64,000 nt of DNA from Macrostomum hystrix (taxonomy: Eukaryota; Animalia; Platyhelminthes): NCBI GenBank assembly GCA_950097015.1, contig CATNEN010000001.1, forward strand, positions 4,154,001-4,218,000. Reading direction: 5' to 3'. The notes under the pieces were generated by a model. The model did not search any database and was not told where the DNA came from. It saw only the letters and a program-made list of their open reading frames with translations. This document shows positions 9,591-58,975 of the stretch, one piece after another (within the stretch, counting starts at the first letter, position 1; each line of letters opens with the position of its first letter). A program made the translations under genes and the position numbers.

Positions 9591-9667
<77 letters not shown>

Positions 9668-30080: not shown

Positions 30081-30439
30081 ATAGTAGGACTATCAAGCCA
30101 CACGGTCGCCTGTTTTCATACCATTATGGTGTCCTGTGGTTGAGCTGCGCCTGAACATCCAGCAGCTCCGTCTAGATAAAGGTAGGTGACCACCGAAGAC
30201 ATGCTGATAAATTTTGAAGGCCTGGCAAGGCCGCACTGAGGCGCAGTGCTAATTCGTGTATGAAATACACTAGCGCTTATGGGAAAAAATCCGACCTTCG
30301 GCCAGAAACATTGCATATCTCGATCGGTCTGAAGAGCTGGACAAAAAGCTGGGCCGTGTTTTTGAGTTTCGTGTGCTTGCGCTGCTCCTTTAAGGTGCAG
30401 CAAAAAATAGTCAGCGGGACCCCTTGGTAGTTCTACTGT
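30081..30439. mobile_element. TA-TSD MITE family copy (internally deleted)
   Basis: Ends ATAGTAGGACTATCAAG / CTTGGTAGTTCTACTGT; internal identity with the 13615 element in inverted orientation. Confidence 0.85.
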
Positions 30440-30794: not shown

Positions 30795-33548
30795 TCACAG
30801 AATGCGGCACGGCTGCTGACGGTTACCGCTCGCACTGACATTGAAGGCATCGGCGGCAGCAGCTTCGCAAATCGCTCGAGTCGCCAGTTGCTGCTCCATC
30901 GCCGACCGGACCTCCAGTCGATCCAGCTGGACGGCAAGGCGGTCGCGATGCTGCAATTCTTTGAACAGCTCGCCAGATAATTCCGGCGTCAGACTAGGCG
31001 AAGAAGACATCAGTAGGTGTCGACGAATGCGCCTCTTGAGTGACTCCAATCTTTGCAACTGTTCAACCTCCAGCTGCATGAGGTCCAGCTGATTGGACTG
31101 GTAATGCACCTGCAGTCGTTGCATGAGCAAGCTGTACCACTCGGTTAGCAAGCCAGCACCGCCTAGAGAGAGGCGTGTGACGCCTTTGTTTGCATTCAAA
31201 GCGACTAGACTGCTTAGAGAGTTGCGCAACTCTTTGCGAAGCTGATTGAGACTGCTTCGACGGCAGGCCAGGTCTTGTCGGCGACGTATCAGCAGCTGCA
31301 TCATTGTGGCGTCCACCTCTAGGTCTGAACTGTCTGTGGTATCCCGCTCAGCGTAGGTAACAACAGCAAGCTGAGGACTACTACTGGCGCCAGTAGTCAG
31401 GTGACAACAACGAAGCTGATGAAGAAAGTCTAGCACCGATGTCACATCTGGAGCTGATCCGTTCAGACTTGGCGTCCTGAATGGAGTTCAAAAAACGCGG
31501 CTTGTATTTCCGCACTTTTGAAGAGACCTTCAATCGTGGTTAACAATAGGACTACCAAGCCATTTTGCCGCCCGTTTTTATACCAAAGGGCCCCCTGAAA
31601 CATTTTTTGGCAGCGCCTGAATGCTAACAGTGTTGGGTGGGGACTGATTGATTGACAGACTAGGCGAGGATGTCCAGTGAAATTTGAGAAATTCGCGTCA
31701 GGGTGTCCATTGTGGCCTAGTTCCACCTGTTGTAGCCCTTGAAGGTCCAGCAGTCCGTCTAGATAAAGTTAGGTGACCACCGAAGACGGAGATAATGCAG
31801 GTACAATCGGGTGACATGCTGATAAATTTTGAAGGCCTGGCAAGGCCGCACTGAGGCGCAGTGCTAATTCATGTATATGGGTGTATGTATAAGGCTTATG
31901 GGAAAAATCAGACCCTCGGCCAGAACCATTGAATATCTCGACGGTCTGAAGGGCTGGCGACTTGATTCTTGTTTCAGAAGATGCGCAAAAAAAGTTGGCC
32001 CATGTTCTTGACTTTCGTGTGCCTGCGCTGCTCCGTTCAGGCGCAGCACAAATATAATTTTGATAGGTGAACTCCCGCCTAATTTAGGACCACCATCATA
32101 CGCATATACTGAGCTATTGTTTTACTAACCTGAACACACCCAGTTGTCTAGCGGCTTCAGCGGCCATGGCGTGGCACTGCAGCCAGCCACTGGGCGGTCC
32201 GGCAGCTGCTTTGTCAGCGGCCGCACGCAGATCTATTAAGCCAGGCCAGTGTCGTTGAATGATGGCACAGAAGGCCAGGCCGCTGCTAAATGATGTGCTC
32301 AGATTTTGAACACAGACGCCAGGACAATTCGCTGCGGACTCGCGAGCCCACGCGAACAGCTGATCAATCTCGGACATGTCCAAATCTAATAGGCTAGTCT
32401 GACGTCGAACTGACAATGGCACAGCTGCTGCATCCGAAGATGCTGCTAGACATTTTCTGAGAGACACTAGCGGCATCGCTTGACCGGGCATGGAATAGTA
32501 CAGTGTGAGACTAACTGTGCCCGACAAGATCTGGTTGGTAAATAGAAGGTACAATTAAGCTTAGCATTACAATCCATATGATGATTCTAGAGTGTACATC
32601 TGCTCAGACTTTCTCATTGTCTCATGTCTCTCATAGACGTGAATTGCGCGACAAGCCAGCAAGCTTTCTTGCCTTCGAGGAACACGGATTCGAGCTCAGG
32701 GACTGTCGCGACTTTATCGTCGTCTCTAAATAGTTCACGTGCACCTTTAGTCTGTCAATCACCTCGATAAACAGACAATTCTGTCTGCTTCTCTACCTCT
32801 GCTTTTAAGCCGCCTTCTGATTGGTCCGGCTCTCCCCTTCTCGCCTTTCTCTTACCCCCAGTCGCGCACTCTCTTTTTTCTCGTCAGGGACTTCAATGCC
32901 TGAGTCGGACGTGATATCGCTTCGCCATTTCAACCCCTAATTCTAGCCCACTTTCGGTAGCAGCAGCAAGAAGGCTTTGGGTCGTGAAGTTTACTTCAAA
33001 GAGGACTTCATTACGAAGGCACAGTGTGAGTGTGTGCCAGCGTGCGGTATAACATATGACAGTGTAGTCGCTAGCTATATGCCCAGTCCACTATCGATGC
33101 GCATAGCAACACTCACTTTCTTAGACATGCGCTCAGTTGGCAACAGCATCAGTTGGTACTCTTGAGCATCGGTAAGAGATTTCAAATCAACCGTACACCT
33201 GGCCAACGGCTTGACGCCAGTGGAACCACCAAGCACTGAAGCTAGGGATCTTCGCTCAGTTTTCAACTCTTCTATTGTCACCGTCAGGATCTTCAAAGAG
33301 TCGCCAGTTAACGCAGTCTTGGACTTTGATTTGGAATGAGAAATATCGATGCTGAGCAGCTCCGGACTGCGCCATTCTAAACAGCAGCGACAGGGCAGCG
33401 ATAAACTGGCAAACCAGCTCACCGCTTGGCTGCTGCAGCAGCCGCTACACACCGTGAGGGATACCCGAAGCAATCGACCTGGGTTGAAGCCTTTGACGCA
33501 GTCAACGGAGGCGGATGAGATCTTGGCAGTCAGTTGGCGACCCTCTGC
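30795..33548 (-). CDS. EHBP1-like paralog A: NT-C2 + CH + bMERB + CAAX (CRIL), ~505 aa; start codon absent from the first visible exon
   Basis: Exons 33548-33117 (NT-C2: ...KPLARCTVDLKSL...LLPTERMSKK), 32530-32130 (CH: QLFAWARE...QNLSTSFSSGLAFCAIIQRHWPGLID) and 31476-30795 (CH end PDVTSVLDFLHQLR; bMERB LLTEWYSLLMQR...ELQHRDRLAVQLD; CRIL stop). Intron phases 0 and 2. Confidence 0.85.
31543..32050. mobile_element. TA-TSD MITE family copy (one end truncated) in intron 2 of paralog A
   Basis: TA+ACAATAGGACTACCAAG end; colinear with the reverse complement of 13615-14227. Confidence 0.85.
32590..32930 (-). mobile_element. Degraded SINE family 2 copy interrupted by a solo LTR
   Basis: Head TGGCGAAGCG...GTCCC|TGAGCTCGAATCCG is reconstituted after removing 32704-32886 plus one GGGAC; carries the GAGAAAGTC...CAGATGTACAC motif of family 2. 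Confidence 0.65.
32704..32886 (-). mobile_element. Putative solo LTR (183 bp)
   Basis: TG...CA termini (TGTCGCGA / TCTCGTCA), 5-bp TSD GGGAC on both sides, CCAAT and TTAAAA motifs on the - strand. Confidence 0.65.
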
Positions 33549-33611
33549 CTGAAACAGGTGCGAGATTGATATTTTGCATTGAATTAGCTTAAAATCACTT
33601 GCTATGATAAT

Positions 33612-33960
33612 ATAATTGCATGAGGGCTGCGGGCAATGGTACATCATTTAGTGACACTAGACCCGCAGCCAGCGAGGAGGAAATTCTGTCCATTTCGCTG
33701 ACTCCTGAGCACACACACTCACAGATACTGTACGCAGGCACACGCTCACACAGGTGTGTACATCTGCCCTGACTTTCTCATCGTCAGGCAGTGTACACTC
33801 TCACTGTGCCTTGGAGGTTGGCCCTCAAGGGCGTAAATTGCACGACAAGCCCCAAAGCCTTCTCTCCGTGGCTGCGCCCTAAATGCATGTGGCCTCGCCG
33901 CGGAATCGAGCTCAGGGACCTTGGTGCGAGAGGCAAACGCGTTAAACCGCTTTACCACTC
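33612..33960 (-). mobile_element. tRNA-derived SINE family 2, full length
   Basis: Head TGGTAAAGCGG...GCTCGATTCC, body and 3' hairpin with ATT tail; highly similar to 44560-44930. Confidence 0.88.
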
Positions 33961-34384
33961 ACAACCAATAATATTTGCCTTAATTTTTATTTAATGAAAT
34001 CACGATCCTAGCTTAATGATATCTTGACTGACCGAAAAAACTTAATAGAATACGAATTTTATTTATGATAAAATAGAAGACAAAAAATCTAGATTATATT
34101 TATAATATTTCTGTTTGTAAAAATCTCCATAAACAAGAAAAAGAATGTAAAAGCGATAATTTGTAAGTTTTTTAGCGAAATAACACATACTTGACGTTTA
34201 GTGGTCTTAATAAAAATTTACGTAAAATATCGGGAAAAAGTTATTTTCATATACAGTGGAAGATTCTTAGATAAAACTGTCGAATACATCTACTAAGAAA
34301 CAAACTCGATCGATAAAGGTTAGACAAATTCTACTACTTAGTAGTAGTAAATATATCCAAGTTTGTCATGTCTAGAAATAAATT

Positions 34385-37300
34385 TCAAAGAAATGTGCAC
34401 CAATACGAGCTGGCATAACAGACGTCAGTGCCAGGTAGACTCGAGGTGTGAAACCAGCCGTCTTCATCTTCGAATCCCAAACTGGTTGGCTGCTGATCGT
34501 ATGGGACCAATGTCGCAGCATTTGAATACAAAGATGGCTGCTGATGCTGCAGCGGCGATAAGCAGAAATGCTGACGCAACTGTCTGAGTAGTTGAAGTAG
34601 GCGATGTCCGCTTTCTGGACTGTCCCTGTCCCAGGCCAGGTCCAGGCGAGGAGCCCTGGAGGTTCAGATGGGTGGTTGAAATTTCGAATTATAAATCAAG
34701 CCAAGAAAACTAAGTAGAAGTTGGAAACTACTTAGCAAAGAATATTCTAATTAACAAACACATCCTAGTAGTAAAGACTTTACCGAAGCAACATAGTTGC
34801 AGCAAAAAAAATGCATAAGAAACTGCATAGCAACGAAGATTCTAGATGAAAAACATCCTAGCAACAAAGATTCCACCTAAGAAACTGCATAGCAACGAAG
34901 ATTCCACTAAAGAAACTGCATAGCAACGAAGATTCTAGATGAAAAACATCCTAGCAACGAAGATTCCACAAAAGAAACTGCCTAGCAACAAAGATTCCAC
35001 CTAAGAAACTGCATAGCAACGAAGATTCCATATTAAAAACAGCCTGGCAACGAAGATTCCTCCGAAGAAACAGCATAGCAACGAAGATTCCACCAAAGAA
35101 ACTGCATAGCAACGAAGATTCCATATTAAAAACAGCCTGACAACGAAGATTCCACCAAAGAAACTGCATAGCAACGAAGATTCTAGATGAAAAACATCCT
35201 AGCAACAAAGATTCCACCTAAGAAACTGCATAGCAACGAAGATTCTAGATGAAAAACATACTAGCAACGAAGATTCCACAAAAGAAACTGCCTAGCAACA
35301 AAGATTCCACCTAAGAAACTGCATAACAACAAAGATTCCACCTAAGAAACTGCACAACAACGAAGATTCCACTAAAGAAACTGCATAGCAACGAAGATTC
35401 TAGATAAAAAACATCCTAGCAACGAAGATTCCACAAAAGAAACTGCCTAGCAACAAAGATTCCACCTAAGAAACTGCATAGCAACGAAGATTCCATATTA
35501 AAAACAACCTGGCAACGAAGATTCCACCGAAGAAACAGCATAGCAACGAAGATTCCACCAAAGAAACTGCATAGCAACGAAGATTCTAGATGAAAAACAT
35601 CCTAGCAACGAAGATTCCACAAAAGAAACTGCCTAGCAACAAAGATTCCACCTAAGAAACTGCATAACAACAAAGATTCCACCTAAGAAACTGCACAACA
35701 ACAAAGATTCCACCTAAGAAACTGCATAACAACAAAGATTCCACCTAAGAAACTGCATAACAACAAAGATTCCACCTAAGAAACTGCACAACAACGAAGA
35801 TTCCACTAAAGAAACTGCATAGCAACGAAGATTCTAGATAAAAAACATCCTAGCAACGAAGATTCCACAAAAGAAACTGCCTAGCAACAAAGATTCCACC
35901 TAAGAAACTGCTGAAGATTCCATATTAAAAACAACCTGGCAACGAAGATTCCACCAAAGAAACAGCATAGCAACGAAGATTCCACCAAAGAAACTGCATA
36001 GCAACGAAGATTCTAGATGAAAAACATCCTAGCAACGAAGATTCCACAAAAGAAACTGCCTAGCAACAAAGATTCCACCTAAGAAACTGCATAACAACAA
36101 AGATTCCACCTAAGAAACTGCACAACAACAAAGATTCCACCTAAGAAACTGCCTAGCAACGAAGATTCAACCTAGGAAACCGCATAGAAACGAAGATTCC
36201 ATATGAAAAACATGCTAGCAACGAGTATTCCACTTAAGAAAGTGCATAGCAACGAAAATCGATTCCAATTTAGTAACACGGAGCAACTAACACGCTGCCC
36301 TGATGCCTGCACCATTCGTCAGAGCAATCTTGAAAAACTATTCGAAAATTCTTCATCAGAGACGGATGCTCAGCCAGCACGTTGAAGTTAACGACACCAG
36401 TCTCGCCGCCGCAGAATCGCCGAATAACCAAGAAAGCGATGTCAAAGTTTGACAGAATCGACTGGGCATCGTCGACTGGAGCTACATCCGGGTGACCGTC
36501 GGAGACAGCGCGCAGCCAGGCCTCCAGACTGTGCGTCAGCAGCGTCTGATTGACGGCTTGCGACTGTCTCGGATTGGGCAGGCGAAGATCGGCGCGAACT
36601 ACCGCGGAATCTGGTTTGCCGCAGTCTTTGGAGTCGACTCCCCGTCTAACCGGGCCCATCGCAATACTGTGGAGGCTAGTGAAGACCCTAGCTGGCGAGA
36701 GCATCTTCAACGGCATCTCCGTAGATCGCCTGCTGCTGCGAGCGTAGATTAGATCGAATTGTAGAGTGACACTGGCCAGCTGGGAACAGGACTGCAGGGC
36801 GATGGGAGAGATAAGTGCGTTGATACTCCGGAACTTGAGACTTTTTAACTCAATGCTACTATACAGATCTGCAGGGGTCGAAGCAACCCAGTTGCCCCTT
36901 CTGACACCTACAGTATCCTGCTTCATATTTCACCGTGTGTCATTCCTTCCCTGTCTCAGCTCTTCCGTGTCTCATCTCTTCATTGTCTCATCTCTCCCGT
37001 GTCTCATCTCTCCCCTGTCTCATCTCTCCCGTGTCTCATCTCTCCCCTGTCTCATCTCTCCCGTGTCTCATCTCTCCCGTGTCTCATCTCTCCCGTGTCT
37101 CATCTCTCCCGTGTCTCATCTCTCCCCTGTCTCATCTCTCCAGTGTCTCATCTCTCCTGTGTCTCATCTCTCCCGTGTCTCATCTCTCCCGTGTCTCATC
37201 TCTCCCGTGTCTCATCTCTCCCGTCTCATCTCTCCCCTGTCTCATCTCTCCCCTGTCTCATCTCTCCCGTGTCTCATCTCTCCCCTGTCTCATCTCTCCC

Positions 37301-38720
37301 CTGTCTCATCTCTCCCGTGTCTCATCTCTCCCCTGTCTCATCTCTCCCGTGTCTCATCTCTCCCCTGTCTCATCTCTCCCCTGTCTCATCTCTCCCCTGT
37401 CTCATCTCTCCCGTGTCTCATCTCTCCCGTGTCTCATCTCTCCTGTGTCTCATCTCTCCCGTGTCTCATCTCTCCCGTGTCTCATCTCTCCCGTGTCTCA
37501 TCTCTCCCCTGTCTCATCTCATCCCTGTCTCATCTCTCCCGTGTCTCATCTCTCCCCTGTCTCATCTCTCCCGTGTCTCATCTCTCCCGTCTCATCTCTC
37601 CCCTGTCTCATCTCTCCCTTGTCTCATCTCTCCCGTGTCTCATCTCTCCCCTGTCTCATCTCTTCGCTGTCTCATCTCTCCCGTGTCTCATCTCTCCCCT
37701 GTCTCATCTCTCCCCTGTCTCATCTCATCCCTGTCTCATCTCTCCCCTGTCTCATCTCTCCCGTGTCTCATCTCTCCCCTGTCTCATCTCTCCCCTGTCT
37801 CATCTCTCCCGTGTCTCATCTCTCCCGTGTCTCATCTCTCCCGTGTCTCATCTCTCCCGTGTCTCATCTCTCCCGTGTCTCATCTCTCCCCTGTCTCATC
37901 TCTCCCCTGTCTCATCTCTCCCCTGTCTCATCTCTCCCGTGTCTCATCTCTCCCCTGTCTCATCTCTCCCGTGTCTCATCTCTCCCCTGTCTCATCTCTC
38001 CCGTGTCTCATCTCTCCCCTGTCTCATCTCTCCCCTGTCTCATCTCTCCCCTGTCTCATCTCTCCCGTGCCTCAAGAATAATCAGTCCAACAAGAACTTG
38101 CTCGGCTAGACTTCAGAGCAGGAAGTTGCAAAGTCACCGGCATTAGCCGCCAGTCCCCAGCGTTGCATGTTTCAGATTCATTGTCGACTTGTTTTGCTAT
38201 GTTGAAATCTCCACGAGCCAAGTTTGCCGAACTAGAACCGACTTTTTTTTCAGTAGAATTTACGACAGACACTGTCCACGCTTTGTCCGCATATTTTGGC
38301 GACTGCGCTTCTGTAAAGCAAAGAACAAATTATTTGCTTATTTCTATGTTCCGTACTCTCTTATCTATCTTTAGTTGTGTTCTCTCTAGTTAGTTTAGAC
38401 ATTTTATACTCGTATTTGTTTCGGTGCACTTATTGATTGTTCTAACCATTTCGCTTTGCAGACGCATCAGGAACCAGTCGAAGCTTAGTAGACTTGGCAA
38501 TCGTCACTGGTCCCGTGGCGTCGTTTTTAAAAAACTCTATCGGTTGGCCATAGACAGCGTGAGCTTGAGCGTGCCGCTTATAGATGATTGAGGCCGGCCG
38601 CAGTTCTTGCTGCAATCCACCACGCGACAATGTCACACGTAGGCTAGCTATTTGAGTACGTGGAGTCCAACCGTTTAGGGTCACCGAGTGCAAGTCTAAT
38701 TTGAAATCGAATCTCGTCAT
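34385..38720 (-). CDS. EHBP1-like paralog B: NT-C2 + divergent CH + acidic tail + CAAX (CTFL), ~417 aa
   Basis: Exons 38720-38447, 38310-38102 (needs a GC donor), 36791-36292 and 34655-34385 join in frame. NT-C2: MTRFDFKLDLHSVTL...KAWTVSVV...LARGDFNIA. CH-like: SLEAWLRAVSDGHPDV...LLQLLRQLRQHF. Intron positions match paralogs A, C and D. Confidence 0.72.
34815..36255. repeat. Minisatellite, ~30 bp unit with higher-order variants (AAGAAACTGCATAGCAACGAAGATTCCACC)
   Basis: Fills the last intron of paralog B. Confidence 0.96.
36965..38070. repeat. 16 bp satellite (GTGTCTCATCTCTCCC)
   Basis: Direct; same family at 42890 and (inverted) 54215. Confidence 0.98.
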
Positions 38721-39353
38721 GAAGATAATCTGGAAGGGTCAAAAAAATTATAGACCAACTTTGCTAAAAAAAATCGATGACAAAAAATGGCGCACAGCCT
38801 TTTCAATTCAAACTCGGAATTATGTGGCAAATGGCGAAATCTGGGAAGTAAGAAAATGCTTAGAATTTAAATTCGACATTGAGTAGTCGTACTCACTTTT
38901 GTTGCCAATTTTATTGAGATCAAGTAGTTGTTCTAGTGTTTGTGGATAAATCTAAAAATATTGACTATAGAGAATTGGTAAAGGCCTTATTGAAATGACC
39001 AATACTAAAACTATCCAATCTATAGCGAACGATTGTACACAACAGTAATGAAATAACGAAGTCATTATGCCAAACGCTGGTAAAACAGGAAAACTTTTTA
39101 TTTTAATTGATAAAAAACAAATCACACTAAAACGCGACATGTACGCTTTCAGATCAAAACAAACAAGTCAAATGCTCAGTTGAATCTTGAGAAAAAAATG
39201 CAAAATCTGATTATAAACACTAAATGAAAATGCCAAACTACAAACCGGAAGACACAGCTTAGGCATTTTATTATAACTTGTACTAAATAGAGAACAACGA
39301 AAAATGTCAAATAGATTGCGGAGAAGATAAAATAAATCCCTGGAGCGTTAGTC

Positions 39354-39926
39354 TCAGACTTGATTGCCATCTTGTTGGTGCTGCACAATGGAGTGCACTT
39401 TGAGATTGCTTTTCCGACTAAAGCGCATGCCGCAGACGCTGCATTTGAAGGGCTTCTCACCTGAATGCACCATCAAGTGACTATTGAGATTGTAACGCTT
39501 ACGAAAATTCTTCTCGCACAGTTGGCACTGAAAAGGCCTGGAGCAGCTTGATCGATTAGATAGCTTAGATTCAATCAACCCGGTAATAGGACTGAGCCTG
39601 CGCTTCTTCGGCTTATTATGAACAACTTGCATGTGCTTCTTCAAACTATCAGCGTGAGAGAATCGATTTCTGCATTTGACACACGGTAGCGGCTTCTGTT
39701 GGCAAAAAAAGCGTTGATGCCTGTAAAAATCGCTGTACAAAAAACTCTTTTTGCATTGCTGGCATTGGCGATGACGCCTCTTTGCAGGGCGACGGCTTCG
39801 GCGGAGGCACAGCACAATCGCTTTCCTGGCTTCATCGCAGCCAAGACAATGAGACTCCAAGTGGTTCCAGTACGCGTCTCTCTGGTATCTTTGAAACCGC
39901 ATCAGGCACATCGGACACATTGACAT
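39354..39926 (-). CDS. C2H2 zinc-finger protein, 190 aa, single coding exon
   Basis: Fingers [72 protein letters not shown] plus two atypical N-terminal fingers; basic NLS-like KPKKRR. Confidence 0.9.
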
Positions 39927-40478
39927 GTCTGGACTAGTCTAAACCTGGAACCAATGAGCAAACATTGTATATTAGTAGGATAAAATTGAGTCCGAGTTCT
40001 TAAGGCATCTTACTAGATCTTCGATAGATTATAAAGATTCGCACAAAAGCGAATTAACCACATTTCATTAACCACATTTACCATGTTGCACTAAAATTGT
40101 ACACCAGTTATAAATTCTTTTTAGTCAAGTTTCTATACAAATATAAATTAAATAGAAAAAGGCAAACACAGATTTGCTAAAAAATAAAGAAAAACTATAT
40201 TTTTTCTCATAAAAAAGGTTTTGAGCAAACAACAGACCAATCACTACAATTATAAAAGTGAGTAAAGAAAACTGTTTTAAAATCTATAAAATATATTTAA
40301 AAAGCTATAGTGGAATCTTGTAGTGTTGCATCTATGTAGAAGAGTGAAACAATCGAATTAAAATATCTGACAAAGTCAATGGTCTCTTTCCAAAGTAATT
40401 TAATGTGCGCCTTTGAACGCACAGAAAACGTTTGTCAATGTCTCGTTCTATTTACAGAATGAAATGAAAATTTCGACT

Positions 40479-42512
40479 TCATAGAATACAACAGGCCGAT
40501 TGAGCCTGATTGGACTCATTGTCGCCGCCATTTTCCGTCTCTTGAACAACGGAATCATTGTCCGCAGCAGTCGATGTGGACTCCGGAAGCATCATCTGAC
40601 GGAGCTGCTCAGCGTCAACTACTTCCCAGTCGAACTCCCAGTCCGCAGCGTCTGCGGTATCAATGCCGACTGCAGACGACGCGACAAAGAAGTCCCGCAG
40701 ACGACGCAGCAGCTCAGAATTTTCAATGCGCCTCTGAGGTAAATTCAGCAACGAGGAGTCGTCGACTATAGCGCTGGGCCTGGCGACAACAGTGACGATG
40801 CTATATTTTAACTTGTCTATATTAATTAAGTTGGAGCAGAAAATAGCAGAAAAGCAAGAAGCTAGGGGGAGACTGGCAGAGCGGTCTAACACAGGCACAG
40901 TGAGAGTGTACACTGCCTGACGATGAGAAAGTCCGGGCAGATGTACACACTAGTGTGCGTGTGTGCTCTGGAATTGCCTCCTCGCTGGCTGCGGGTCTAT
41001 TGTCACCAAATGTGCCATTGCCTTTGCTACCAAGCAGCAAAGTTTATTATCATTACGGGTGGCAGCTTTCATCGTTTCCTACCAATCGATTCCAAGGACT
41101 CCAGCCGCCTGTCTTGCCATGGACATTCTGACACAATCGCCACCAGCTCCTATGACAGCTCGCAAGTCGATAAGGTCCGGCCTGTGCCTGTGCAGGACAG
41201 CGCAGAAAACTACGCCGTCATTGAAGTTGGAAGCTGTCAAATCGGTGTCGCAAATCTGAGCATAGCTTCTCAGAGCACCTCGCGTCCAGGATACCAGACT
41301 ATCAGACAAGTCCCGGTTTTCAAAGCGATTCGAGCCCTCTCGGAAAAGCCGAGACAACTGACCTGTTGATTGACTACCAGACCAGGACCTCGACAGCAGC
41401 ATCTGCAACTGACGACTGTCTTTCGCATTCAATTTGGCAACGACTGTGAGGCTCTGATGTGTTTGCAATTGTCCAATAGACACAGATGCTGATGAAACGG
41501 TAACGGCGCTAAAATCTCTTGAGGATGGTGACTCCACGACTGTTTGCTGATTTGCTGGCAAAACCTCGGTTTTCGAAAATTTTAGAACTTTCATTTCTTC
41601 CACACATGCGGAGTCATTCACAGTAGGGTTTGAAAGATTCGGCCTGTCAGCTTCCGCCAGAGACTGAGCACTCTGCAATGCTTCTGGGAGAATAGGACTG
41701 TCAGCTGCAGACAGTTCCGCCAGTGACTGAGCACTCTGCGATGCTTCTGGGAGAATAGGACTGCCAGTTGCAGAAGGCGCCATTAATAGTTCAGCAGCCA
41801 AAGTAGAGGCTCGAACACAATTCTTCAAGCCATCAGTAATATCAGTAGACACTTCGTTGAGGCATTGGAAGTTCGCTGTTTGCAAAGGCTGGATAAAGGC
41901 TTGTTCTGACTTGCACAAGCGAATGGAATGAATGGTTAGTGTGACACTGGCAGCAGTAATCTGCGGGTGAATAGGCGATTATTTAAACAAATGAAGTAGC
42001 TGTTTAAAATAAAAATAAATTAAAAAATATTTGTTACTAAGTCTAAAACTGACCAGATTATGTTTAACCGGTACTAAACTGACAGTGAATTGCTCTGATA
42101 GTCTCGTCTGACTGCAATCTGTGCTGATAAACTCGGCTAAATTGATTCGGCAGCTAGCAAGCTCCAGACGGTTGCTAGGCAACAATGACTTGGCCTTTCT
42201 AGTCTCAACAATTAGAAGCCAGATCTTGTCACAAAATACAGGCTCGTTGGGTTTTAATCTAGCATCGTCGGATGGAAACTTGAATTTAGCCGTGAAGCCA
42301 GCAGTCTGCGGTGTTAGCCACTGAACGCAGCGAATGCTAGGATTGGCTGACTGAGCCGACCAATCAGAGAGCTGCGTGCCAGCGCGACGCTTGCCTAATG
42401 TTCCCGATTTGACAAGCGCAGCGGCCAACTGACTCGGTTGAAAGCCAGGCCGACAGTCCACGGACACGCGGTGGAAGCTGACCGTTAGGCGATGCTTCAC
42501 AACCGACCTCGG
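40479..42512 (-). CDS. EHBP1-like paralog C: NT-C2 + linker + CH + acidic LIR-like tail + CAAX (CCIL), ~546 aa; start codon absent from the first visible exon
   Basis: Exons 42512-42054 (HRLTVSFHRVSVDCRPGFQPSQL...DKIWLLIVE...LASCRINLAEF), 41960-41083 (CH: SLVSWTR...NFNDGVVFCAVLHRHRPDLID) and 40779-40479. Intron phases 0 and 2. Confidence 0.85.
40872..41052 (+). mobile_element. SINE family 2, internally deleted copy
   Basis: TGGCAGAGCGG head fused to the 3' part (CTGACGATGAGAAAGTC, GCCTCCTCGCTGGCTGCGGG). Confidence 0.8.
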
Positions 42513-42889
42513 CTGCAAGTTTAACAGTGTTAGATCTGATTTTATTTAGCCAGTGATTTAGAAACAATCGACAATGAAACTCTCTTTAACTCGAAACAGA
42601 TAATAAAATAAAGCTAAACCACAGTTCTGAAAGAATGATTTTGCGTTTATAAAAAACCAACTAGACTTTTTTCGCGGTAAAAACTTCACAATTTCTGGAG
42701 TATCCGACTGAATAAAGAGTAAAGTATAAAGCTGTAAACTTTTGAGAAACTTATTTTTACAATTACAAAACGCTTAAGAAAGTAATATGCATGAGTGAGC
42801 GAAACAACATTTAGGAATCTAGTCCAGCTGTTATGAAAAATATTCAGATAGACATCTGTTTGCGTAAAAAATAGCGTGAAAATCTAACC

Positions 42890-43832
42890 AGTGTCTCAAC
42901 TCTCCCGTGTCTCATCTCTCCCGTGTCTCATCTCTCCCGTGTCTCATCTGTCCCGTGTCTCATCTCTCCCGTGTCTCAACTCTCCTGTGTCTCATCTCTC
43001 CCGTGTCTCATCTCTCCCGTGTCTCATCTCTCCCGTGTCTCATCTCTCCCGTGTCTCATCTCTCCCGTGTCTCATCTCTCCCGTGTCTCATCTCTCCTGT
43101 GTCTCATCTCTCCCGTGTCTCATCTCTCCCGTGTCTCATCTCTCCTGTGTCTCATCTCTCCCGTGTCTCATCTCTCCCGTGTCTCATCTCTCCCGTGTCT
43201 CATCTCTCCCGTGTCTCATCTCTCCCGTGTCTCATCTCTCCCGTGTCTCATCTCTCCCGTGTCTCATCTCTCCCGTGTCTCATCTCTCCCGTGTCTCATC
43301 TCTCCCGTGTCTCATCTCTCCCGTGTCTCATCTCTCCCGTGTCTCATCTCTCCCGTGTCTCATCTCTCCTGTGTCTCATCTCTCCCGTGTCTCATCTCTC
43401 CCGTGTCTCATCTCTCCCGTGTCTCATCTCTCCCGTGTCTCAACTCTCCTGTCTCATCTCTCCCGTGTCTCATCTCTCCCGTGTCTCATCTCTCCTGTGT
43501 CTTATCTCTCCCGTGTCTCATCTCTCCCGTGTCTCATCTCTCCCGTGTCTCATCTCTCCCGTGTCTCATCTCTCCCGTGTCTCATCTCTCCCGTGTCTCA
43601 TCTCTCCCGTGTCTCATCTCTCCCGTGTCTCATCTCTCCCGTGTCTCATCTCTCCCGTGTCTCATCTCTCCCGTGTCTCATCTCTCCCGTGTCTCATCTC
43701 TCCTGTGTCTTATCTCTCCCGTGTCTCATCTCTCCCGTGTCTCATCTCTCCCGTGTCTCATCTCTCCCGTGTCTCAACTCTCCTGTCTCATCTCTCCTGT
43801 CTCAACTCTCCTGTCTCTCAACTCTCCCGTGT
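42890..43832. repeat. 16 bp satellite (GTGTCTCATCTCTCCC)
   Basis: Direct; lies between paralogs D and C. Confidence 0.98.
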
Positions 43833-43908
43833 TTCATCCATCCCGTATCTCATACCTCCATAGTCAGTCTTTGTCTTTGTTGTATTAGGGTTCATTGAGT
43901 AAAATAAG

Positions 43909-46723
43909 TCATAAAATGGTGCATGACGCCCAATGAAGTTTATTGAGAAGGCTTGGCGACTCCACCGTGACCATCACCAAGCACTGTTCATCAACTAGCT
44001 CTTCATTCACCATCACCCAGTCGTCTAGTGCAACGAGCGGCCTTGGTGGCACCCGGCGACCGAAGCGTTCTCGCAGTTGGTGCAGAAACGCCGCTATCAG
44101 TCTCTGACTAGGGATTCGATGCAGCACCAGGGCTGACGCATCTGGAGTCCTAGGGACATTAAAAATAAATGGCTTTATCACTGCAGAGGAGACACTCAAT
44201 TACCAAGGACCACTAGGAGTAGGACGGGAAACTACGTTTCTTAGAAAAAAATATCACTTTCACTGGCTTTCACTTTTATTAGATTTCAATGATGACAGCT
44301 TTTGATTGGAAGCAGATATAAAGCTGTTCTTTTGATAAAGCTTGCCTAACGTGTTGCTCTGTAACAATGCTATACAGTTTTGTACATGGCAATTTGTTTT
44401 CATACTATCTTCTTTACTTATAAACATCCGATTTCACTGACTATTTTTTGCAGTTATTTTAATAGCGATTAATTACAGCGTATACAGGGGGGGGGCAACT
44501 GTGCCAGATGACTTCGGCAGGTGCCAATACCATTACTATTTACTAACTCACTAATGTTGAGGGTCGGTGGCAGAGCGGTTAACGCGTTTGCCTCTCGCAC
44601 CACGGCCCCTAAGTTCGATTCCACGGCGAGGCCACATTCATTTGGGGCGCAGACGCGAAGAGAAGGTTTGGGGGCTTGTCGTGCAATTTACGCCCTTGTG
44701 GGCCAACCTCCAAGGCACAGCAAGAGAGTGTACCACTGCCTGACGATGAGAAAGTCAGGGCAGACGTACACACCTGTGTGAGCGTGTGCCTGCGTACAGT
44801 ATCTGTGTGCGTGTGTGCTCAGGAGTCAGCGAAATGGACAGAATTGCCTCCTCGCTGGCTGCGGGTATAGTGTCACTAAATGATGTACCATTGCCCGCAG
44901 CCCTCCTGCAATTATTATTTTTTATTATTCTATTGAAGCTAGGAAGAAATAGCTAATAGCGATTAATATAATGTTTAATTAGTAATTAATTGCAAGAGGA
45001 ACGCAAAAATAAGGTCCAGCAAATTTTACTAGTCAATAGTGTAATAAATCTCAGACTTATGAAAGGTTATTTAGTAAAAAAACCGTAGAAAGATTAAATT
45101 GTATTGTAGAAAACTTTATAATCCGTTTTCAATCAAAAGCTGTCACGATTTAAATCTTTTAAAAAGTCTAATTTTCCTATCTCCGTATTGTATTTTTCTC
45201 GCGAAAACAAGTCGTTGATTTTTTTTCTAAGAAACGTAGTCTCCTGTCCTTCTACTAGTGGTCTTGTCAATCACATGAGAAGATAACTTATCCCAAACTG
45301 AACAATTTCCTCATTTTAAACTAGCCTACTCACATATCAACGCCAAGCTCTCTGGCAGCGTTAAACGCTAAGTTATTATTCTCGCGCAAGTTGTTAGTTA
45401 AACAGTCGAAATCGATCAGACGCGGCGAGAATCTATTAATGATTGCGCAGAATGCAAGACCGTTGCGAAAAGACGTGTGACGATTAGCGATTTTCACGTA
45501 TCGATAGCCTTCGGTGCATTCGCGACTCCAGGCCAGAAGGCTGTCAGTAAAGTCCGCGTCGAGAGAGACCTCGAGACCAACAACTGACGCGTCAGGTGTG
45601 CAAGGACTAAGTGCGGATGCTGAAGTCAGTGTCGATGACTCATCGGGTGAACAAGGACTATGCGCCGATGACTCATCCAATGTACTATTAGCTAGACCTT
45701 CTGTTGATAACTCGGGAAACGAAAGGTCATCAACAAGATGAGTTGGCGTATTTATAGCGGTGGCACAGCCAGGCATAGGCGCCTCTGGCATTGGCGAGCA
45801 GATAGGATAGATAAGTAGGGATAAACTGACGGAAGCCACCTATCAAAGAGCGATGTTGAATTTTGTCGTTTGATTTATTGGAAAAATCTTTCAAAGTTTG
45901 AAATTTGAAACCAGTAGCAAAGTGGTCTAAAGCGTTTGCCTCTCGAGCCGAGGTCCCTGAGCTCGATTCCGCGGCGAGGCCACATTCATTTGGGGCGCAG
46001 CCGCGGAGAGAAGGCTTGGGGGCTTGATAGCCAAGCGCCAAGGGACAGTGAAAGTGTGCAATGCATATAGACTGCCTGACGACGAGAACGCCAAGGCAGA
46101 TGTACACACCTGTGTGCGTGTGTTCTCAGGAGTCAGCGAAATAGGCAGAATTGCCTCCTCGCTGGCTGCAGGTCTCGTGTCACTAATTGGTATGCGATTG
46201 TCCGCAGCCCTTCTGCAATTACGAGTATTAATATTATTATTATTCTAACCTTCTTCGACCTGGAACGCAGCGGCAGCTCAGTCAGAAACTCTGGTTGAGC
46301 CGAGCCTGGCTTCAATAATCTTGCCTTGGACACCAGCTGAGCTAGTCGAACTGTACGGCTGGCGATTCGCTTACAGCCGGCATCGGCTAGACACTCGCAG
46401 GCGACAAATTTCCAATCCTCTGCGACGCCAGCTGAGAAGGTGAAGTCAAAAACGTCGCTAACTGATGCGGCGTCAATGCAACAGACTCTTGTACACGCTG
46501 ATGTCGCACTCGACAACCAACAGCAGCTGCGAGGCTGGGTGCGGTGACGCCAGTGTTTAATGTCAAGTCGTTCAGATCTCAATAGACGACTGATGCGGCC
46601 CACACGATCGTCAGCCGCAGTGGCTGCGGCAAACACCTGTCCTAAGCAACGACTGCTCGAATGATTGCACTCGATTGTCAAACTGGCAAATTTGATAATC
46701 AACTGCCGCTGATTGTGGGCCAT
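43909..46723 (-). CDS. EHBP1-like paralog D: NT-C2 + CH + LIR-like tail + CAAX (CTIL), ~406 aa
   Basis: Exons 46723-46250 (MAHNQRQLIIKFASLTIEC...DWKFVACE...IASRTVRLAQL...LPLRSRSKK), 45839-45334 (CH: SLLAWSRECTEGYRYVKIANRHTSFRNGLAFCAIINRFSPRLIDF...NNNLAFNAARELGV) and 44149-43909. Intron phases 0 and 2. Confidence 0.88.
44202..45268. mobile_element. Putative TIR element (~55 bp imperfect TIRs) with a nested SINE, in intron 2 of paralog D
   Basis: GACCACTAGGAGTAGGACGGGAAACTACGTTTCTTAGAAAAAAA at 44208 is the reverse complement of TTTTTTTCTAAGAAACGTAGTCTCCTGTCCTTCTACTAGTGGTC ending ~45263. Confidence 0.65.
44560..44930 (+). mobile_element. tRNA-derived SINE family 2, full length
   Basis: A box TGGCAGAGCGG, B box AGTTCGATTCC, 3' hairpin, (ATT)n tail. 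Confidence 0.88.
45915..46245 (+). mobile_element. SINE family 2 copy in intron 1 of paralog D
   Basis: Colinear with 44560-44930; ATT tail ends a few nt from the splice donor. Confidence 0.85.
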
Positions 46724-46974
46724 TTTCAATGCCCGCGTTGTTTCTGCAACAACAATTGTTTTAACTTGTATAAAACCATGTCCGCGCCGCCAATTTGTTT
46801 CGAAAATCTACACAACTGAATCCTTTACAAACTGGGGTAAAAACTGTAAATAAGTACAGGGATCTTAAAGACCTTTGGTAGCTACATTGGCTCAATGTTT
46901 TTAAATGATATTTTTTTTATTTTCATGCCTATTAACAGAAGAAAGACCACGGCTATTTCAAATACCCACTGCCT

Positions 46975-48112: not shown

Positions 48113-48395
48113 TTGATTACACCTGCCCCAATTGGGTCAGATGCGCAACCGACAGCACAGCCGCAGCTGTTGCGCAGCGCATCTGAAGGCTGCGTAAAAC
48201 TGTTCAGGCCATGGACTGGGGGGACGCCACACCCACCTTCAATTATCCTAGCTGATGCTGGTACCCATTTAACAGCTGAAGCAATGCAGAGTTAAGTGTC
48301 TTGCTAAAGGACACAAATTGTTCCAGTGGAGTCGGGAATCGAACCCCCGACCTTCAAGTCGTGAGTCCGACGCCCTAACCACTAGGCTACAACCT
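48113..48395 (-). mobile_element. tRNA-derived SINE family 1, full length
   Basis: Head GGTTGTAGCCTAGTGGTTAGGGCGTCGGACTCACGACTTGAAGGTCGGGGGTTCGATTCCCG on the - strand; matches 58976-59290. Confidence 0.9.
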
Positions 48396-48870
48396 CTTGC
48401 CTGCCTGCCCTGTACTACTGTAAGTAATGAAACTGTTGACAAGTAATATTACAACAGGCCACCAAATTAGATCTTAATTAAGAACTCAGAAAAAAATCGA
48501 GTAAATTAAAAAGACAAGTTCAAAATGCTCCACTTTAACGCTGGTTGTTCTCCGGTTTATTATTATTATTATTTATTTCTCATTATGATTTGTAGTTTAG
48601 AAAAGAAGCTAATATAAGGCTGGAAATGAACTGAACGAAACACAAACCAAAGTTTATTTTCTACTTAATTTGTAGAAAGTCAATATACGGGCTCGTAATT
48701 GGATAGATTTCACACCTTATTCAATTATAATTATCGCATACCCCTACGCAACAATAATTAGAAGTTGATTTATTTTTATATTACGAAACGTTTTTGCTTA
48801 CATAGAGACAGGCGATTTAAACATACATAAAAGAAACACAGAGAGAATTCTAAGAGGGCCAATCTAGATT

Positions 48871-51800: not shown

Positions 51801-53992
51801 GTCAATCCAGTGTCTCTTCTATCAAGAACTTCAGTCAATCCAGTGTCTCTTCTATTAAGAACTTCAGTCAATCCAGTGTCTCTTCTATCAAGTACTTCAG
51901 TCAATCCAGTGTCTCTTCTATCAAGAACTTAAGTCAATCCAGTGTCTCTTCTATCAAGAACTTCAGTCAATCCAGTGTCTCTTCTATCAAGAACTTCAGT
52001 CAATCGAGTGTCTCTTCGATCAAGAACTTCAGTCAATCCAGTGTCTCTTCTATCAAGAACTTCAGTCAATCCAGTGTCTCTTCTATTAAGAACTTCAGTC
52101 AATCCAGTGTCTCTTCTATCAAGTACTTCAGTCAATCCAGTGTCTCTTCGATCAAGAACTTCAGTCAATCCAGTGTCTCTTCGATCAAGAACTTCAGTCA
52201 ATCCAGTGTCTCTTCGATCAAGAACTTCAGTCAATCCAGTGTCTCTTCTATCAAGAACTTCAGTCAATCCAGTGTCTCTTCTATCAAGAACTTCAGTCAA
52301 TCCAGTGTCTCTTCTATCAAGTACTTCAGTCAATCCAGTGTCTCTTCTATCAAGAACTTCAGTCAATCCAGTGTCTCTTCTATCAAGAACTTCAGTCAAT
52401 CCAGTGTCTCTTCTATCAAGAACTTCAGTCAATCCAGTGTCTCTTCTATCAAGAACTTCAGTCAATCCAGTGTCTCTTCTATTAAGAACTTCAGTCAATC
52501 CAGTGTCTCTTCTATCAAGAACTTAAGTCAATCCAGTGTCTCTTCTATCAAGTACTTCAGTCAATCCAGTGTCTCTTCGATCAAGAACTTCAGTCAATCC
52601 AGTGTCTCTTCGATCAAGAACTTCAGTCAATCCAGTGTCTCTTCGATCAAGAACTTCAGTCAATCCAGTGTCTCTTCTATCAAGTACTTCAGTCAATCCA
52701 GTGTCTCTTCGATCAAGAACTTCAGTCAATCCAGTGTCTCTTCGATCAAGAACTTCAGTCAATCCAGTGTCTCTTCTATCAAGTACTTCAGTCAATCCAG
52801 TGTCTCTTCTATTAAGAACTTCAGTCAATCCAGTGTCTCTTCTATCAAGTACTTCAGTCAATCCAGTGTCTCTTCTATCAAGAACTTAAGTCAATCCAGT
52901 GTCTCTTCTATCAAGTACTTCAGTCAATCCAGTGTCTCTTCTATCAAGAACTTCAGTCAATCCAGTGTCTCTTCTATCAAGAACTTCAGTCAATCCAGTG
53001 TCTCTTCTATCAAGAACTTCAGTCAATCCAGTGTCTCTTCTATTAAGAACTTCAGTCAATCCAGTGTCTCTTCTATCAAGAACTTCAGTCACTCCAGTGT
53101 CTATCAAGAACTTCAGTCAATCCAGTGTCTCTTCTATCAAGAACTTCAGTCAATCCAGTGTCTCTTCTATCAAGAACTTCAGTCAATCCAGTGTCTCTTC
53201 TATCAAGAACTTCAGTCAATCCAGTGTCTCTTCTATCAAGAACTTCAGTCAATCCAGTGTCTCTTCTATCAAGAACTTCAGTCAATCCAGTGTCTCTTCT
53301 ATCAAGAACTTCAGTCAATCCAGTGTCTCTTCTATCAAGTACTTCAGTCAATCCAGTGTCTCTTCTATCAAGAACTTCAGTCAATCCAGTGTCTCTTCTA
53401 TCAAGAACTTCAGTCAATCCAGTGTCTCTTCTATCAAGAACTTCAGTCAGTCACTCCAGTGTCTCCCAAGACCTTCATTCAACCCAGTTTCTCACCGATT
53501 CAATCTAATAGGCACATCCGACATGAATTCCACACCGCCAGCGACGCAGACCTGAGCAGAGCCAGTTGCTAACAGGCCCATACAGGTAGTGATGGCCTGG
53601 TTAGATGAGATACAGGCCTGAGTGACAGTGTGGGCCGGTGTACGATCGGAATAGCCAGCACCCATGGCAGCCTCGCGTGCAACATTGCTAGTCTTAACCT
53701 CCTGAATAACGGTGCCCATCACAATGTAATCAACCAGAGATTTGTCTAGTTTGGTACGATTGGCCAAGGCTAGCAGGGCGTGCCTGGCCAAATCGTGCGG
53801 CATCAAGCGTTTGTAGTCTGTGCCACTCTGCAGAAACGGAGTTCGAACACCTTCGATCAGCACAAGATTCGGCCGATCTGGCTTTGCTAGAGTGCGCCTC
53901 TTCGAGCCGCCAGAAGCCGGAGCGGCGGTAGCTAGAGAGCGTCGATGTAGCATCAGCCGACTGGCCGTGTTGGCATTCAGAGTTCGAAGCAT
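48871..53992 (-). CDS. HADHB: Mitochondrial trifunctional enzyme beta subunit (3-ketoacyl-CoA thiolase), ~466 aa
   Basis: Exons 53992-53496, 51012-50736 and 49497-48871. Basic transit peptide; motifs [12 protein letters not shown], catalytic [32 protein letters not shown] and ACAAGGQG. Confidence 0.96.
50100..50620. mobile_element. TA-TSD MITE family copy (degraded/rearranged)
   Basis: Shares GGCAAGGCCGCACTGAGGCGCAGTGC and the terminal TTGATAGTTCTTCTAT with the family. Confidence 0.8.
51095..53465. repeat. Minisatellite, 33 bp unit (TCAGTCAATCCAGTGTCTCTTCTATCAAGAACT)
   Basis: About 70 copies filling HADHB intron 1; source of the 855-aa false ORF. Confidence 0.98.
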
Positions 53993-58935: not shown

Positions 58936-58975
58936 ATTATTAGGGCCTAGTATGGATTGTTTAATCAATAAGGCA

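What the first reader, a model, noticed from the sequence alone, without database searches (positions are those of the whole stretch)
30795..46723. Tandem array of four highly diverged, compact EHBP1-like genes with conserved exon structure
Seen in sequence: four co-oriented genes (A 33548-30795, B 38720-34385, C 42512-40479, D 46723-43909) each encode NT-C2 + calponin-homology and end in a CAAX-L box (CRIL, CTFL, CCIL, CTIL). They share a phase-0 intron at the end of the C2 domain (…SKK|) and a phase-2 intron inside the CH domain, yet their sequences are very diverged. Established: NT-C2/CH/bMERB/CAAX is the EHBP1 architecture, which links PI(4,5)P2 membranes, actin and Rab8/10, and most animals have only one or two much longer copies. 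Inference: an old lineage-specific expansion of miniaturised membrane-actin adaptors.
Basis: partly seen in the sequence, partly recalled or inferred. Interest (0 to 1): 0.8.

Follow-up and report, generated by a model that had tools for sequence, protein, structure and literature searches.

The report
Four stripped-down flatworm EHBP1 copies
A flatworm carries four fast-evolving relatives of the membrane-to-actin adaptor EHBP1 in a row (three seen as spliced RNA here, the fourth matched to a gene in a related species); three lack the Rab-binding switch domain and all four end in a different lipid-anchor signal, so they likely act as always-on, Rab-independent membrane tethers, which is untested.

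Summary
The cluster is real. A profile made only of the divergent N-termini retrieves canonical M. lignano EHBP1 (796 aa, NT-C2/CH/bMERB, ends CSVQ), so these look like extra, lineage-derived copies. Corrections: a zinc-finger gene sits between C and B; 'SKK|' holds for A and D only; B has a fourth exon and a GC donor, and its homology is weak; only A keeps a degenerate bMERB. New points: transcripts of C, ZnF, B and A begin at acceptors with 22-24 foreign letters, as a spliced leader would give; its terminal AUG would supply the missing start codons of A and C, in a likely operon. All copies end in CaaX-Leu (geranylgeranyl type), lack the CH residues needed for EHBP1 autoinhibition, and C and D carry an acidic W-x-x-V/L motif resembling an ATG8-binding LIR. 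Best reading: Rab-uncoupled, lipid-anchored C2-CH adaptors. A new variant of a known family; function untested.

The parts
46250..46723 (-). Gene D exon 1 (own ATG; most of the NT-C2-like domain); predicted leader acceptor TTGCAG just upstream of 46743
45334..45839 (-). Gene D exon 2 (last C2 strand, linker, most of CH)
   Evidence: Pfam CH E 8.6e-14; 64% to M. lignano P0001/P0002 over the CH part
43909..44149 (-). Gene D exon 3 (CH end, tail, CaaX CTIL at 43912-43923, stop)
44008..44025 (-). LIR-like motif DDWVMV in D (DDWVIL in the M. lignano orthologue)
   Evidence: strict cLIR pattern met in 2 of 8 proteins scanned, D and its orthologue
42054..42512 (-). Gene C exon 1 (NT-C2); no ATG, starts at a TTGCAG acceptor in frame with a leader AUG
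   Evidence: 3 of 3 contigs start at 42513, with 23, 2 and 23 foreign letters; in-frame stop 12 codons upstream; C2 fold model
41083..41960 (-). Gene C exon 2 (last C2 strand, long linker with a 63-bp duplication, most of CH)
   Evidence: joints in 3 of 4 runs laid; Pfam CH E 6.8e-7
40479..40779 (-). Gene C exon 3 (CH end, acidic tail, CCaX box CCIL at 40482-40493); transcript reaches about 40298
40617..40634 (-). LIR-like motif FDWEVV in C
   Evidence: relaxed xLIR pattern met, strict cLIR not met
39233..39944 (-). Intervening single-exon C2H2 zinc-finger gene (CDS 39354-39926), same strand, leader-type 5' end
   Evidence: Pfam zf-C2H2 E 1.1e-14; 3 of 3 contigs start at 39945 with 24 foreign letters
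38447..38729 (-). Gene B exon 1 (acceptor at 38729, own ATG at 38720 in frame with a leader AUG); phase-1 intron follows
   Evidence: 3 of 3 contigs start at 38730 with 22 foreign letters; joint 38447/38310
38102..38310 (-). Gene B exon 2, ending at a GC donor (GCAAGT), phase 0
   Evidence: 3 of 3 contigs leave the stretch at 38102; donor list
36292..36791 (-). Gene B exon 3 (last C2 strand, linker, degenerate CH)
   Evidence: loose end at 34655 reads into 36292 and the 1415-letter contig leaves exactly 500 letters; CH profile P=0.0013, 1 of 1000 shuffles; no Pfam hit
34385..34655 (-). Gene B exon 4 (CH last helix, acidic-Trp stretch at 34454-34471, CaaX CTFL at 34388-34399); transcript reaches about 34229
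33117..33548 (-). Gene A exon 1 (NT-C2); starts at a TTTCAG acceptor in frame with a leader AUG; first internal Met is residue 134
   Evidence: the one contig that reaches the 5' end starts at 33549 with 23 foreign letters; canonical NT profile P=1.2e-12
32130..32530 (-). Gene A exon 2 (last C2 strand, short linker, most of CH)
   Evidence: joints in 2 of 2 runs; Pfam CH E 4.8e-8
30795..31476 (-). Gene A exon 3 (CH end, degenerate bMERB at about 30876-31307, CaaX CRIL at 30798-30809)
   Evidence: only PDB sequence hit at E<=10 is the Mical-cL bMERB chain 5szh, E 1.3; bMERB profile P=2.3e-4, 2 of 1000 shuffles; 52% to P0015 residues 585-797

Best explanation
These are four protein-coding genes (three seen as spliced RNA, the fourth with an orthologue in M. 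lignano), likely derived from the flatworm's own EHBP1 by an old duplication and tandem copying, and they are predicted to work as geranylgeranyl-anchored C2-CH adaptors that likely tie membranes to actin without waiting for Rab8/10. Shown: exon structure and transcription of A, B, C; NT-C2 and CH homology of A, C, D (B weak); no bMERB signal in B, C, D; CaaX-Leu ends in all four and in both M. lignano orthologues; replacement of the CH residues L534 and T538 (human numbering) in all six derived proteins; four 5' ends with a shared-leader pattern; repeat-adjusted gaps under 1 kb. Inferred: the leader is the flatworm spliced leader, which cuts single mRNAs out of a D-C-ZnF-B-A operon and gives A and C their start codon; GGTase-I adds a C20 anchor (C may be palmitoylated as well, CCIL); with the CH:bMERB clasp gone the CH domain is always exposed, so where the protein acts is set by the lipid anchor, the basic C2 domain and short tail motifs rather than by a Rab; A keeps a remodelled bMERB whose partner is probably no longer Rab8 as in human EHBP1. 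The canonical EHBP1 (seen in M. lignano) would keep the regulated Rab8/10 job.
For: Splice joints and 5' ends; 9 of 10 contigs that reach a 5' acceptor carry 22-24 foreign letters and all 10 stop at the G of AG, as a shared leader gives in 62-89% of simulated k=31 unitigs; all 5 acceptors fit the [T/C]TNCAG leader motif and the M. lignano leader ends in ATG (PMC8629364). Profile of divergent N-termini retrieves P0012, E 7.9e-7, which is M. lignano EHBP1 with NT-C2, CH, bMERB above Pfam cut-offs and CSVQ end. A, C, D N-termini versus a two-row canonical NT-C2 profile: P 1e-12, 4e-15, 1e-7, 0 of 1000 shuffles each. Orthologues keep CH at 69-72% and NT at 40-43% identity, with CaaX-Leu ends CSLL and CAVL: domain-wise constraint. 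L534 or T538 mutation abolishes the CH:bMERB contact in human EHBP1 (PMC7442826 passages); canonical M. lignano EHBP1 keeps D/L/T, 0 of 6 derived proteins keep L534 or T538. Leu at X favours GGTase-I (PMC9868626 passages); EHBP1's box is an FTase substrate.
Against: No biochemical test: CH2-type domains often do not bind actin alone, and CH domains of Mical/Mical-like proteins did not co-sediment with F-actin (PMC7442826 section 10); C (29%) and B (24%) are far from the canonical CH. The leader letters were not displayed, so its identity is inferred. All RNA support is from one study; D has none here. B's homology is weak (pairwise z 1.7-4.4; hhalign probability 5% and 59%). The tree has 8 rows, 2 of them canonical, with long branches for B and C. 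A has two in-frame genomic ATGs 32-33 codons upstream of its acceptor, so an unleadered A mRNA could start there. The 20 residues before the CaaX box hold 0-1 basic residues (5 in canonical), so no polybasic second signal.
Confidence: 0.55

Rival explanations
1. C and D (perhaps B) swapped the Rab-binding domain for an ATG8-binding LIR and act as lipid-anchored selective-autophagy adaptors, a hard-wired form of EHBP1's reported role in lipophagy. Compatible with the best explanation for the anchor, different in the main partner.
For: Acidic W-x-x-V/L in the bMERB-less tails: strict cLIR in D and its orthologue, relaxed xLIR in C; no cLIR in canonical EHBP1 (796 aa) or Anolis EHBP1L1 (1798 aa) (patterns in PMC5119064). 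The motif is kept between species in a poorly conserved tail. Chance of an acidic-W xLIR in shuffled tails 0.016-0.023. EHBP1 is tied to lipid-droplet engulfment (review PMC8865253, passages).
Against: The acidic-W pattern was chosen after seeing the tails; xLIR has poor specificity. B's EDEDGWFHT fits neither pattern. D 365-385 also aligns weakly to the bMERB loop with EDW, so it may be a remnant. Acidic-Trp motifs also serve Arp2/3 and kinesin light chain (recalled, not tested).
Confidence: 0.2
2. The CH domains no longer bind actin; the proteins are membrane-anchored scaffolds or decoys with new partners, A's bMERB possibly sequestering a Rab or the CH of canonical EHBP1.
For: Strong CH divergence in B and C; A and its orthologue keep the W/Y hydrophobic patch that binds CH in human EHBP1 while their own CH lacks the matching residues; Rab-site changes L1179S and V1183F/A, positions whose mutation weakens or abolishes Rab8 binding in human EHBP1.
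Against: D's CH is 50% identical to canonical and 72% to its orthologue, which suggests a kept function; no partner evidence.
Confidence: 0.15
3. The copies are redundant leftovers under relaxed selection, transcribed only because they sit in an operon.
For: Branch lengths 1-3 changes per site against 0.11 for canonical EHBP1; no orthologue of B or C was found (both weak searches); D orthologues are 'Non-Specific' in a positional RNA-seq table (PMC7336406 supplement rows).
Against: Intact spliced ORFs of 406-545 codons, splice sites kept around kilobase satellite insertions, CaaX-Leu kept in 6 of 6 derived proteins, CH much better conserved than N-termini between species.
Confidence: 0.07
4. 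B is not an EHBP1 copy but an unrelated prenylated protein that happens to lie in the cluster.
For: No Pfam, PDB, atlas or database hit for B exon 3; an extra intron; intron columns 4 and 8 off.
Against: Both domains score in the right order against profiles built without B: NT P 5.8e-5 (0 of 1000 shuffles), CH P 0.0013 (1 of 1000); hhalign 0 of 60 shuffles for each, cross pairs 16-18 of 60; same intron phases, same CaaX-Leu, same strand.
Confidence: 0.08

Closest known systems
EHBP1 / EHBP1L1 (NT-C2 PF10358, CH PF00307, bMERB PF12130, CaaX); nearest member M. lignano BOX15_Mlig009844/Mlig026541 (P0012, 796 aa)
   Same: Domain order NT-C2, linker, single CH, C-terminal CaaX; A also has a bMERB-like coiled coil; CH 24-50% and NT 18-33% identical to P0012.
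   Different: 406-546 aa; bMERB absent in B, C, D and altered in A; CaaX ends in Leu, not Gln; clasp residues L534/T538 lost; the N-terminal MSVWKRLQR segment is absent; four copies in a likely operon.
M. lignano BOX15_Mlig029639/Mlig011486 (P0001, P0002; 'hypothetical protein, partial') and UniRef A0A1I8HVX7 (P0015)
   Same: Orthologue of D (41% overall); P0015 is a fused model of the D orthologue followed by the A orthologue (55% over CH-bMERB), which implies the same order and strand in M. lignano.
   Different: Deposited without a family name beyond CH domain; no orthologue of B or C found.
MICAL-like proteins (CH, LIM, bMERB)
   Same: Single CH2-type domain; A's tail is nearest in PDB to the Mical-cL bMERB.
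   Different: No LIM or monooxygenase domain; NT-C2 and CaaX present.
Flatworm spliced-leader operons and leader-supplied AUG (Ustyantsev and Berezikov 2021, PMC8629364; Cheng et al. 2006 as cited in PMC9851317)
   Same: [T/C]TNCAG acceptors, repeat-adjusted gaps under 1 kb, ORFs in frame with the leader's terminal AUG.
   Different: Nothing in mechanism; here it serves a cluster of paralogues, five genes long if D is included (most M. lignano operons have two or three).

Membership tests
EHBP1/EHBP1L1 | N-terminal NT-C2 domain (A, C, D) | tested here: met
   Below Pfam cut-off, but the A/C/D profile retrieves EHBP1 at E 7.9e-7, canonical profile P 1e-7 to 4e-15; C model pLDDT 63 matches C2 domains, top Z 8.2, rmsd 2.8-3.5, 107-113 aligned (alignment held two canonical rows)
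EHBP1/EHBP1L1 | N-terminal NT-C2 domain (B) | tested here: inconclusive
   P 5.8e-5 and 0.0028 on two profiles; hhalign probability 5%
EHBP1/EHBP1L1 | Single CH domain (A, C, D) | tested here: met
   Pfam CH above cut-off in 3 of 4
EHBP1/EHBP1L1 | Single CH domain (B) | tested here: inconclusive
   No Pfam hit; P 0.0013, 1 of 1000 shuffles; hhalign probability 59% over 101 columns
EHBP1/EHBP1L1 | bMERB domain (B, C, D) | tested here: not met
   Tails of 50-68 residues after CH; bMERB profile P 1, 0.13, 0.027; no Pfam hit
EHBP1/EHBP1L1 | bMERB domain (A) | tested here: inconclusive
   No Pfam hit, but profile P 2.3e-4 (orthologue 5.5e-7), sole PDB hit a bMERB at E 1.3, W1119, L1182, R1189, D1190 kept: homologous, degenerate
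EHBP1/EHBP1L1 | C-terminal CaaX box | tested here: met
   4 of 4, all X=Leu, against CSVQ in canonical M. lignano EHBP1
EHBP1 | CH residues for autoinhibition by bMERB (D532, L534, T538) | tested here: not met
   L534 and T538 replaced in 6 of 6 derived proteins; D532 kept in A and its orthologue only
EHBP1 | NPF motifs for EHD binding | tested here: not met
   0 in A-D and the D orthologue, but also 0 in Anolis EHBP1L1; canonical P0012 was not in that scan, so weakly diagnostic
EHBP1/EHBP1L1 | Binding of Rab8/10, F-actin and anionic lipid; prenylation | not testable with these tools
   needs bench assays
EHBP1/EHBP1L1 | Same intron positions as the canonical gene | not tested
   no genomic DNA of a canonical EHBP1 was available
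MICAL/MICAL-like | LIM domain, monooxygenase domain | tested here: not met
   no such Pfam hit at E<=1 in 13 of 13 exon pieces of A-D
Macrostomum SL operon (criterion of PMC8629364) | Adjacent co-oriented genes, repeat-adjusted gap under 1 kb | tested here: met
   D-C 433, C-ZnF 353, ZnF-B 503, B-A 680; thiolase-D 2127 not met
Macrostomum SL operon (criterion of PMC8629364) | Spliced-leader sequence on the 5' end of downstream genes | tested here: inconclusive
LIR/AIM-containing ATG8 adaptors | cLIR or xLIR pattern in a disordered tail | tested here: met
   cLIR in D and orthologue, xLIR in C; not in A; B only an xLIR in the linker. Disorder not computed
LIR/AIM-containing ATG8 adaptors | W-dependent binding to ATG8 | not testable with these tools

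The most novel reading that the evidence does not exclude
Macrostomum has built from EHBP1 a subfamily in which the Rab switch was dropped and replaced by a LIR: geranylgeranylated C2-CH-LIR proteins that tie F-actin and a target membrane directly to ATG8, co-expressed from one trans-spliced operon, with A as a remodelled-bMERB regulator. No such Rab-independent, prenyl-anchored actin-ATG8 adaptor turned up in the searches made here.
Probability: 0.17. Interest if true: 0.75.

Novelty: new variant of a known kind. Interest (0 to 1): 0.47.

Why it matters
EHBP1 is a conserved, mostly single-copy Rab8/10 effector whose actin binding is gated by a CH:bMERB clasp. These copies are a natural deletion series (bMERB lost or remodelled, clasp residues replaced, farnesyl-type box changed to geranylgeranyl-type) kept in at least two Macrostomum species, one of which is a transgenic and RNAi model. 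They allow a direct test of what an unregulated EHBP1 core does in an animal and whether a short acidic-Trp motif took over from the Rab domain. They also show how leader-supplied start codons and operons mislead annotation: the M. lignano models are 'partial' or fused. Gene-family expansion and leader-supplied AUG are each known, which limits the surprise.

Tried and rejected
No whole genome was held, so copy number elsewhere and a canonical EHBP1 in this species could not be checked. No listed run is on record as RNA; X2-X5 are taken as RNA because their contigs skip introns. ESM Atlas gave no useful hit for D exon 1 (best 0.88) or B's CH part (0.85). AlphaFold of C exon 1 on the divergent rows alone gave pLDDT 38, uninformative; with two canonical rows 63, which biases towards C2; Foldseek gave no match at E<=0.001, best PTEN C2 E 0.013. 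Searching with the D orthologue at similar length found only itself and its duplicate (2 of 7994 scored); B exon 3 found 0 of 514 candidates and one chance PDB hit: weak negatives. Of the 4 profile hits, P0011 and P0013 are repeat proteins and were dropped as spurious. The CH-only tree left most forks open. A complex prediction of the A orthologue's CH with its bMERB never ran because the queue was full, so that contact is untested. dN/dS could not be computed (no orthologue DNA). Supplement look-ups for the M. lignano gene ids: 0 hits in PMC8662610, PMC5816591, PMC12896417 (large files may be cut); files of PMC8629364 and PMC5946080 could not be read and may hold leader or expression flags. 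Earlier findings: nothing in three look-ups. Rejected: pseudogene array; recent tandem duplication or assembly artefact (no coding DNA similarity); upstream coding exon for C (contigs stop at the acceptor); the nearer GT donors for B exons 2 and 3 (contigs pick 38102 and 36292).
Full report
Observation. Splicing at the exon limits listed under parts gives open frames of 406 (D), 545 (C), 417 (B) and 504 (A) codons, ending CTIL, CCIL, CTFL and CRIL. Contigs of runs X2-X5, from one study and not on record as RNA, skip both introns of C and the first of B in 3 of 4 runs laid (X1, another organism, covers little) and both introns of A in 2 of 2. For B, contigs leave exon 2 at 38102, a GC donor; the loose end at 34655 reads into 36292; and the 1415-letter contig leaves exactly the 500 letters of 36791-36292. 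A zinc-finger gene between C and B is transcribed too. The phase-0 and phase-2 introns share alignment columns in A, C, D and lie 4 and 8 columns off in B. The coding DNA of the four cannot be aligned, so the duplications are old.

Organism and relatives. The best hits are M. lignano 'hypothetical, partial' proteins P0001/P0002, 41% identical to D; the window is therefore likely another Macrostomum species (inference). P0015, a 797-residue UniRef model, is the D orthologue joined to an A orthologue ending CSLL; since separate D models end in CAVL, I read it as a fused prediction, which implies D then A on one strand in M. lignano. No orthologue of B or C was found, by weak searches. A profile of only the divergent N-termini gave 4 hits among 1.84 billion proteins: the D orthologue, two repeat proteins that I dropped, and P0012 at E 7.9e-7. 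P0012 is canonical M. lignano EHBP1, with NT-C2, CH and bMERB above Pfam cut-offs and a CSVQ end. No other species' EHBP1 passed, which fits descent from the flatworm's own gene. In an 8-row NT+CH tree the six derived rows form one side (90/87, not starred), with branches of 1-3 changes per site against 0.11 for P0012; sampling is thin and B and C are long branches.

Domains. CH passes Pfam in A, C, D; NT-C2 in none. Against a profile of two canonical NT-C2 domains A, C, D score P 1.2e-12, 4.4e-15, 1.3e-7, with 0 of 1000 shuffles as good. A model of C exon 1 (pLDDT 63, alignment with two canonical rows) is all-beta and its best structural matches are nearly all C2 domains, top Z 8.2; without the canonical rows the model was useless. 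B is the weak member: NT P 5.8e-5, CH P 0.0013 on profiles without B, hhalign probabilities 5% and 59%. Only A has a bMERB-like tail: profile P 2.3e-4, orthologue 5.5e-7, sole PDB hit the Mical-cL bMERB at E 1.3. Between species CH is 69-72% and the N-terminal domain 40-43% identical, which argues for selection on the protein.

5' ends. Ten contigs reach a 5' end of C, ZnF, B or A; all ten stop at the G of an AG, and nine carry 22-24 letters that fit nowhere in the stretch (one has 2). A leader shared by 1,000-20,000 mRNAs gives 22-24 such letters in 62-89% of simulated unitigs. The letters were not displayed. All five acceptors, D's predicted one included, fit [T/C]TNCAG, the leader-acceptor motif of M. 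lignano, whose leader ends in ATG (PMC8629364, parts 1-2 of 4 read). That ATG is in frame with A and C, whose first internal Met is residue 134 and 213; C has an in-frame stop 12 codons upstream, A has two in-frame ATGs 32-33 codons upstream of the acceptor, outside the contig. Leader-supplied starts are known in flatworms (PMC9851317 passages, citing Cheng 2006, not read; PMC10468722 passages). Repeat-adjusted gaps are 433, 353, 503 and 680 bases, under the 1-kb operon criterion; the thiolase gene upstream is 2127 away.

Mechanism. In human EHBP1 bMERB clasps CH and blocks actin binding until Rab8 binds; mutation of L534 or T538 abolishes the clasp; the CaaX box is an FTase substrate; NT-C2 binds PI3P, PI5P and PS (PMC7442826, abstract, passages and section 10). 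Mapped by anchoring on the last CH helix, canonical M. lignano EHBP1 keeps D532, L534, T538; none of the six derived proteins keeps L534 or T538. A keeps W1119, L1182, R1189, D1190 but has Ser at 1179 and Phe (orthologue Ala) at 1183, positions whose mutation weakened or abolished Rab8 binding. All six end in Leu, which favours GGTase-I, and C's CCIL has the CCaX form that is also palmitoylated in brain Cdc42 (PMC9868626 passages). The N-terminal domains stay basic (20-27 K+R against 11-15 D+E). I therefore expect always-open, C20-anchored membrane-actin adaptors outside Rab control (0.55). Against: Mical CH domains do not bind F-actin, B and C CH domains are far diverged, and nothing was assayed.

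Tail motif. D and its orthologue match the strict cLIR pattern, C the relaxed xLIR (patterns from PMC5119064 passages), B has an acidic Trp that fits neither. Shuffled tails give an acidic-W xLIR in 1.6-2.3% of 20,000 tries, but I picked the pattern after seeing it. EHBP1 has a reported role in lipid-droplet autophagy (review PMC8865253 passages; the primary paper was not read). The motif may also be a remnant of the bMERB loop or an Arp2/3- or kinesin-type acidic motif (recalled). I give the ATG8 reading about 0.2.

Known or new. A full-text search for Macrostomum with EHBP1 gave 0 papers, and one for EH domain-binding protein, flatworm, gene duplication and calponin homology (3 of 4 terms) gave 3 papers, 2 listed, neither on this by title and abstract start; subscription journals and some supplements were not visible. 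The D orthologues appear as 'Non-Specific' in one positional RNA-seq table (PMC7336406 supplement rows). The proteins descend from EHBP1 and probably work like its membrane-actin core, but B, C and D fail the bMERB test and all fail the clasp test, so they are a derived subfamily rather than ordinary members. Verdict: real, new variant of a known kind, interest 0.47.

Noticed in passing
window 36933-38074, 42891-43853, 54229-55054 (16-bp unit); 34816-36256 (31-bp unit): The same 16-bp satellite sits in B's GC-AG intron, between D and C, and upstream of the thiolase gene; a 31-bp satellite fills B's last intron. Splicing across both is intact.
   Followed up: partly
window 33612-33958, 44567-44915, 45913-46221, 40893-41012, 56938-57085: A dispersed element of about 350 bp in introns and spacers, 71-93% alike, with very high summed contig depth in the runs laid; SINE-like. 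A second family at 30152-30439, 31540-32054, 13615-14230, 50256-50576.
   Followed up: partly
window 48113-48402: tRNA-like match at 48327-48396 (Rfam E 0.0033) inside a repeat with copies at 58971-59274, 27157-27268, 61824-61997: probably a tRNA-derived SINE.
   Followed up: no
window 48871-53992 and 56194-56832, minus: Thiolase (HADHB-like by recall) and intronless KDEL receptor genes upstream on the same strand (Pfam), each start just after a TTCAG acceptor; may extend the operon, gaps 2127 and 1375 after repeat removal.
   Followed up: partly
window about 13155-28790, plus: Large coiled-coil gene with a weak GRIP hit (E 0.0009), golgin-like, convergent with gene A; one exon holds a 14-copy 84-bp coding repeat at 22780-23982.
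   Followed up: no
window 39926-39944 and 46723-46743: A leader AUG would open a 2-codon upstream ORF before the zinc-finger start and a 6-codon one ending just before D's ATG, a possible translational brake.
   Followed up: no
window 60889-63234, plus: F-box gene with leucine-rich exons (F-box E 0.0002).
   Followed up: no
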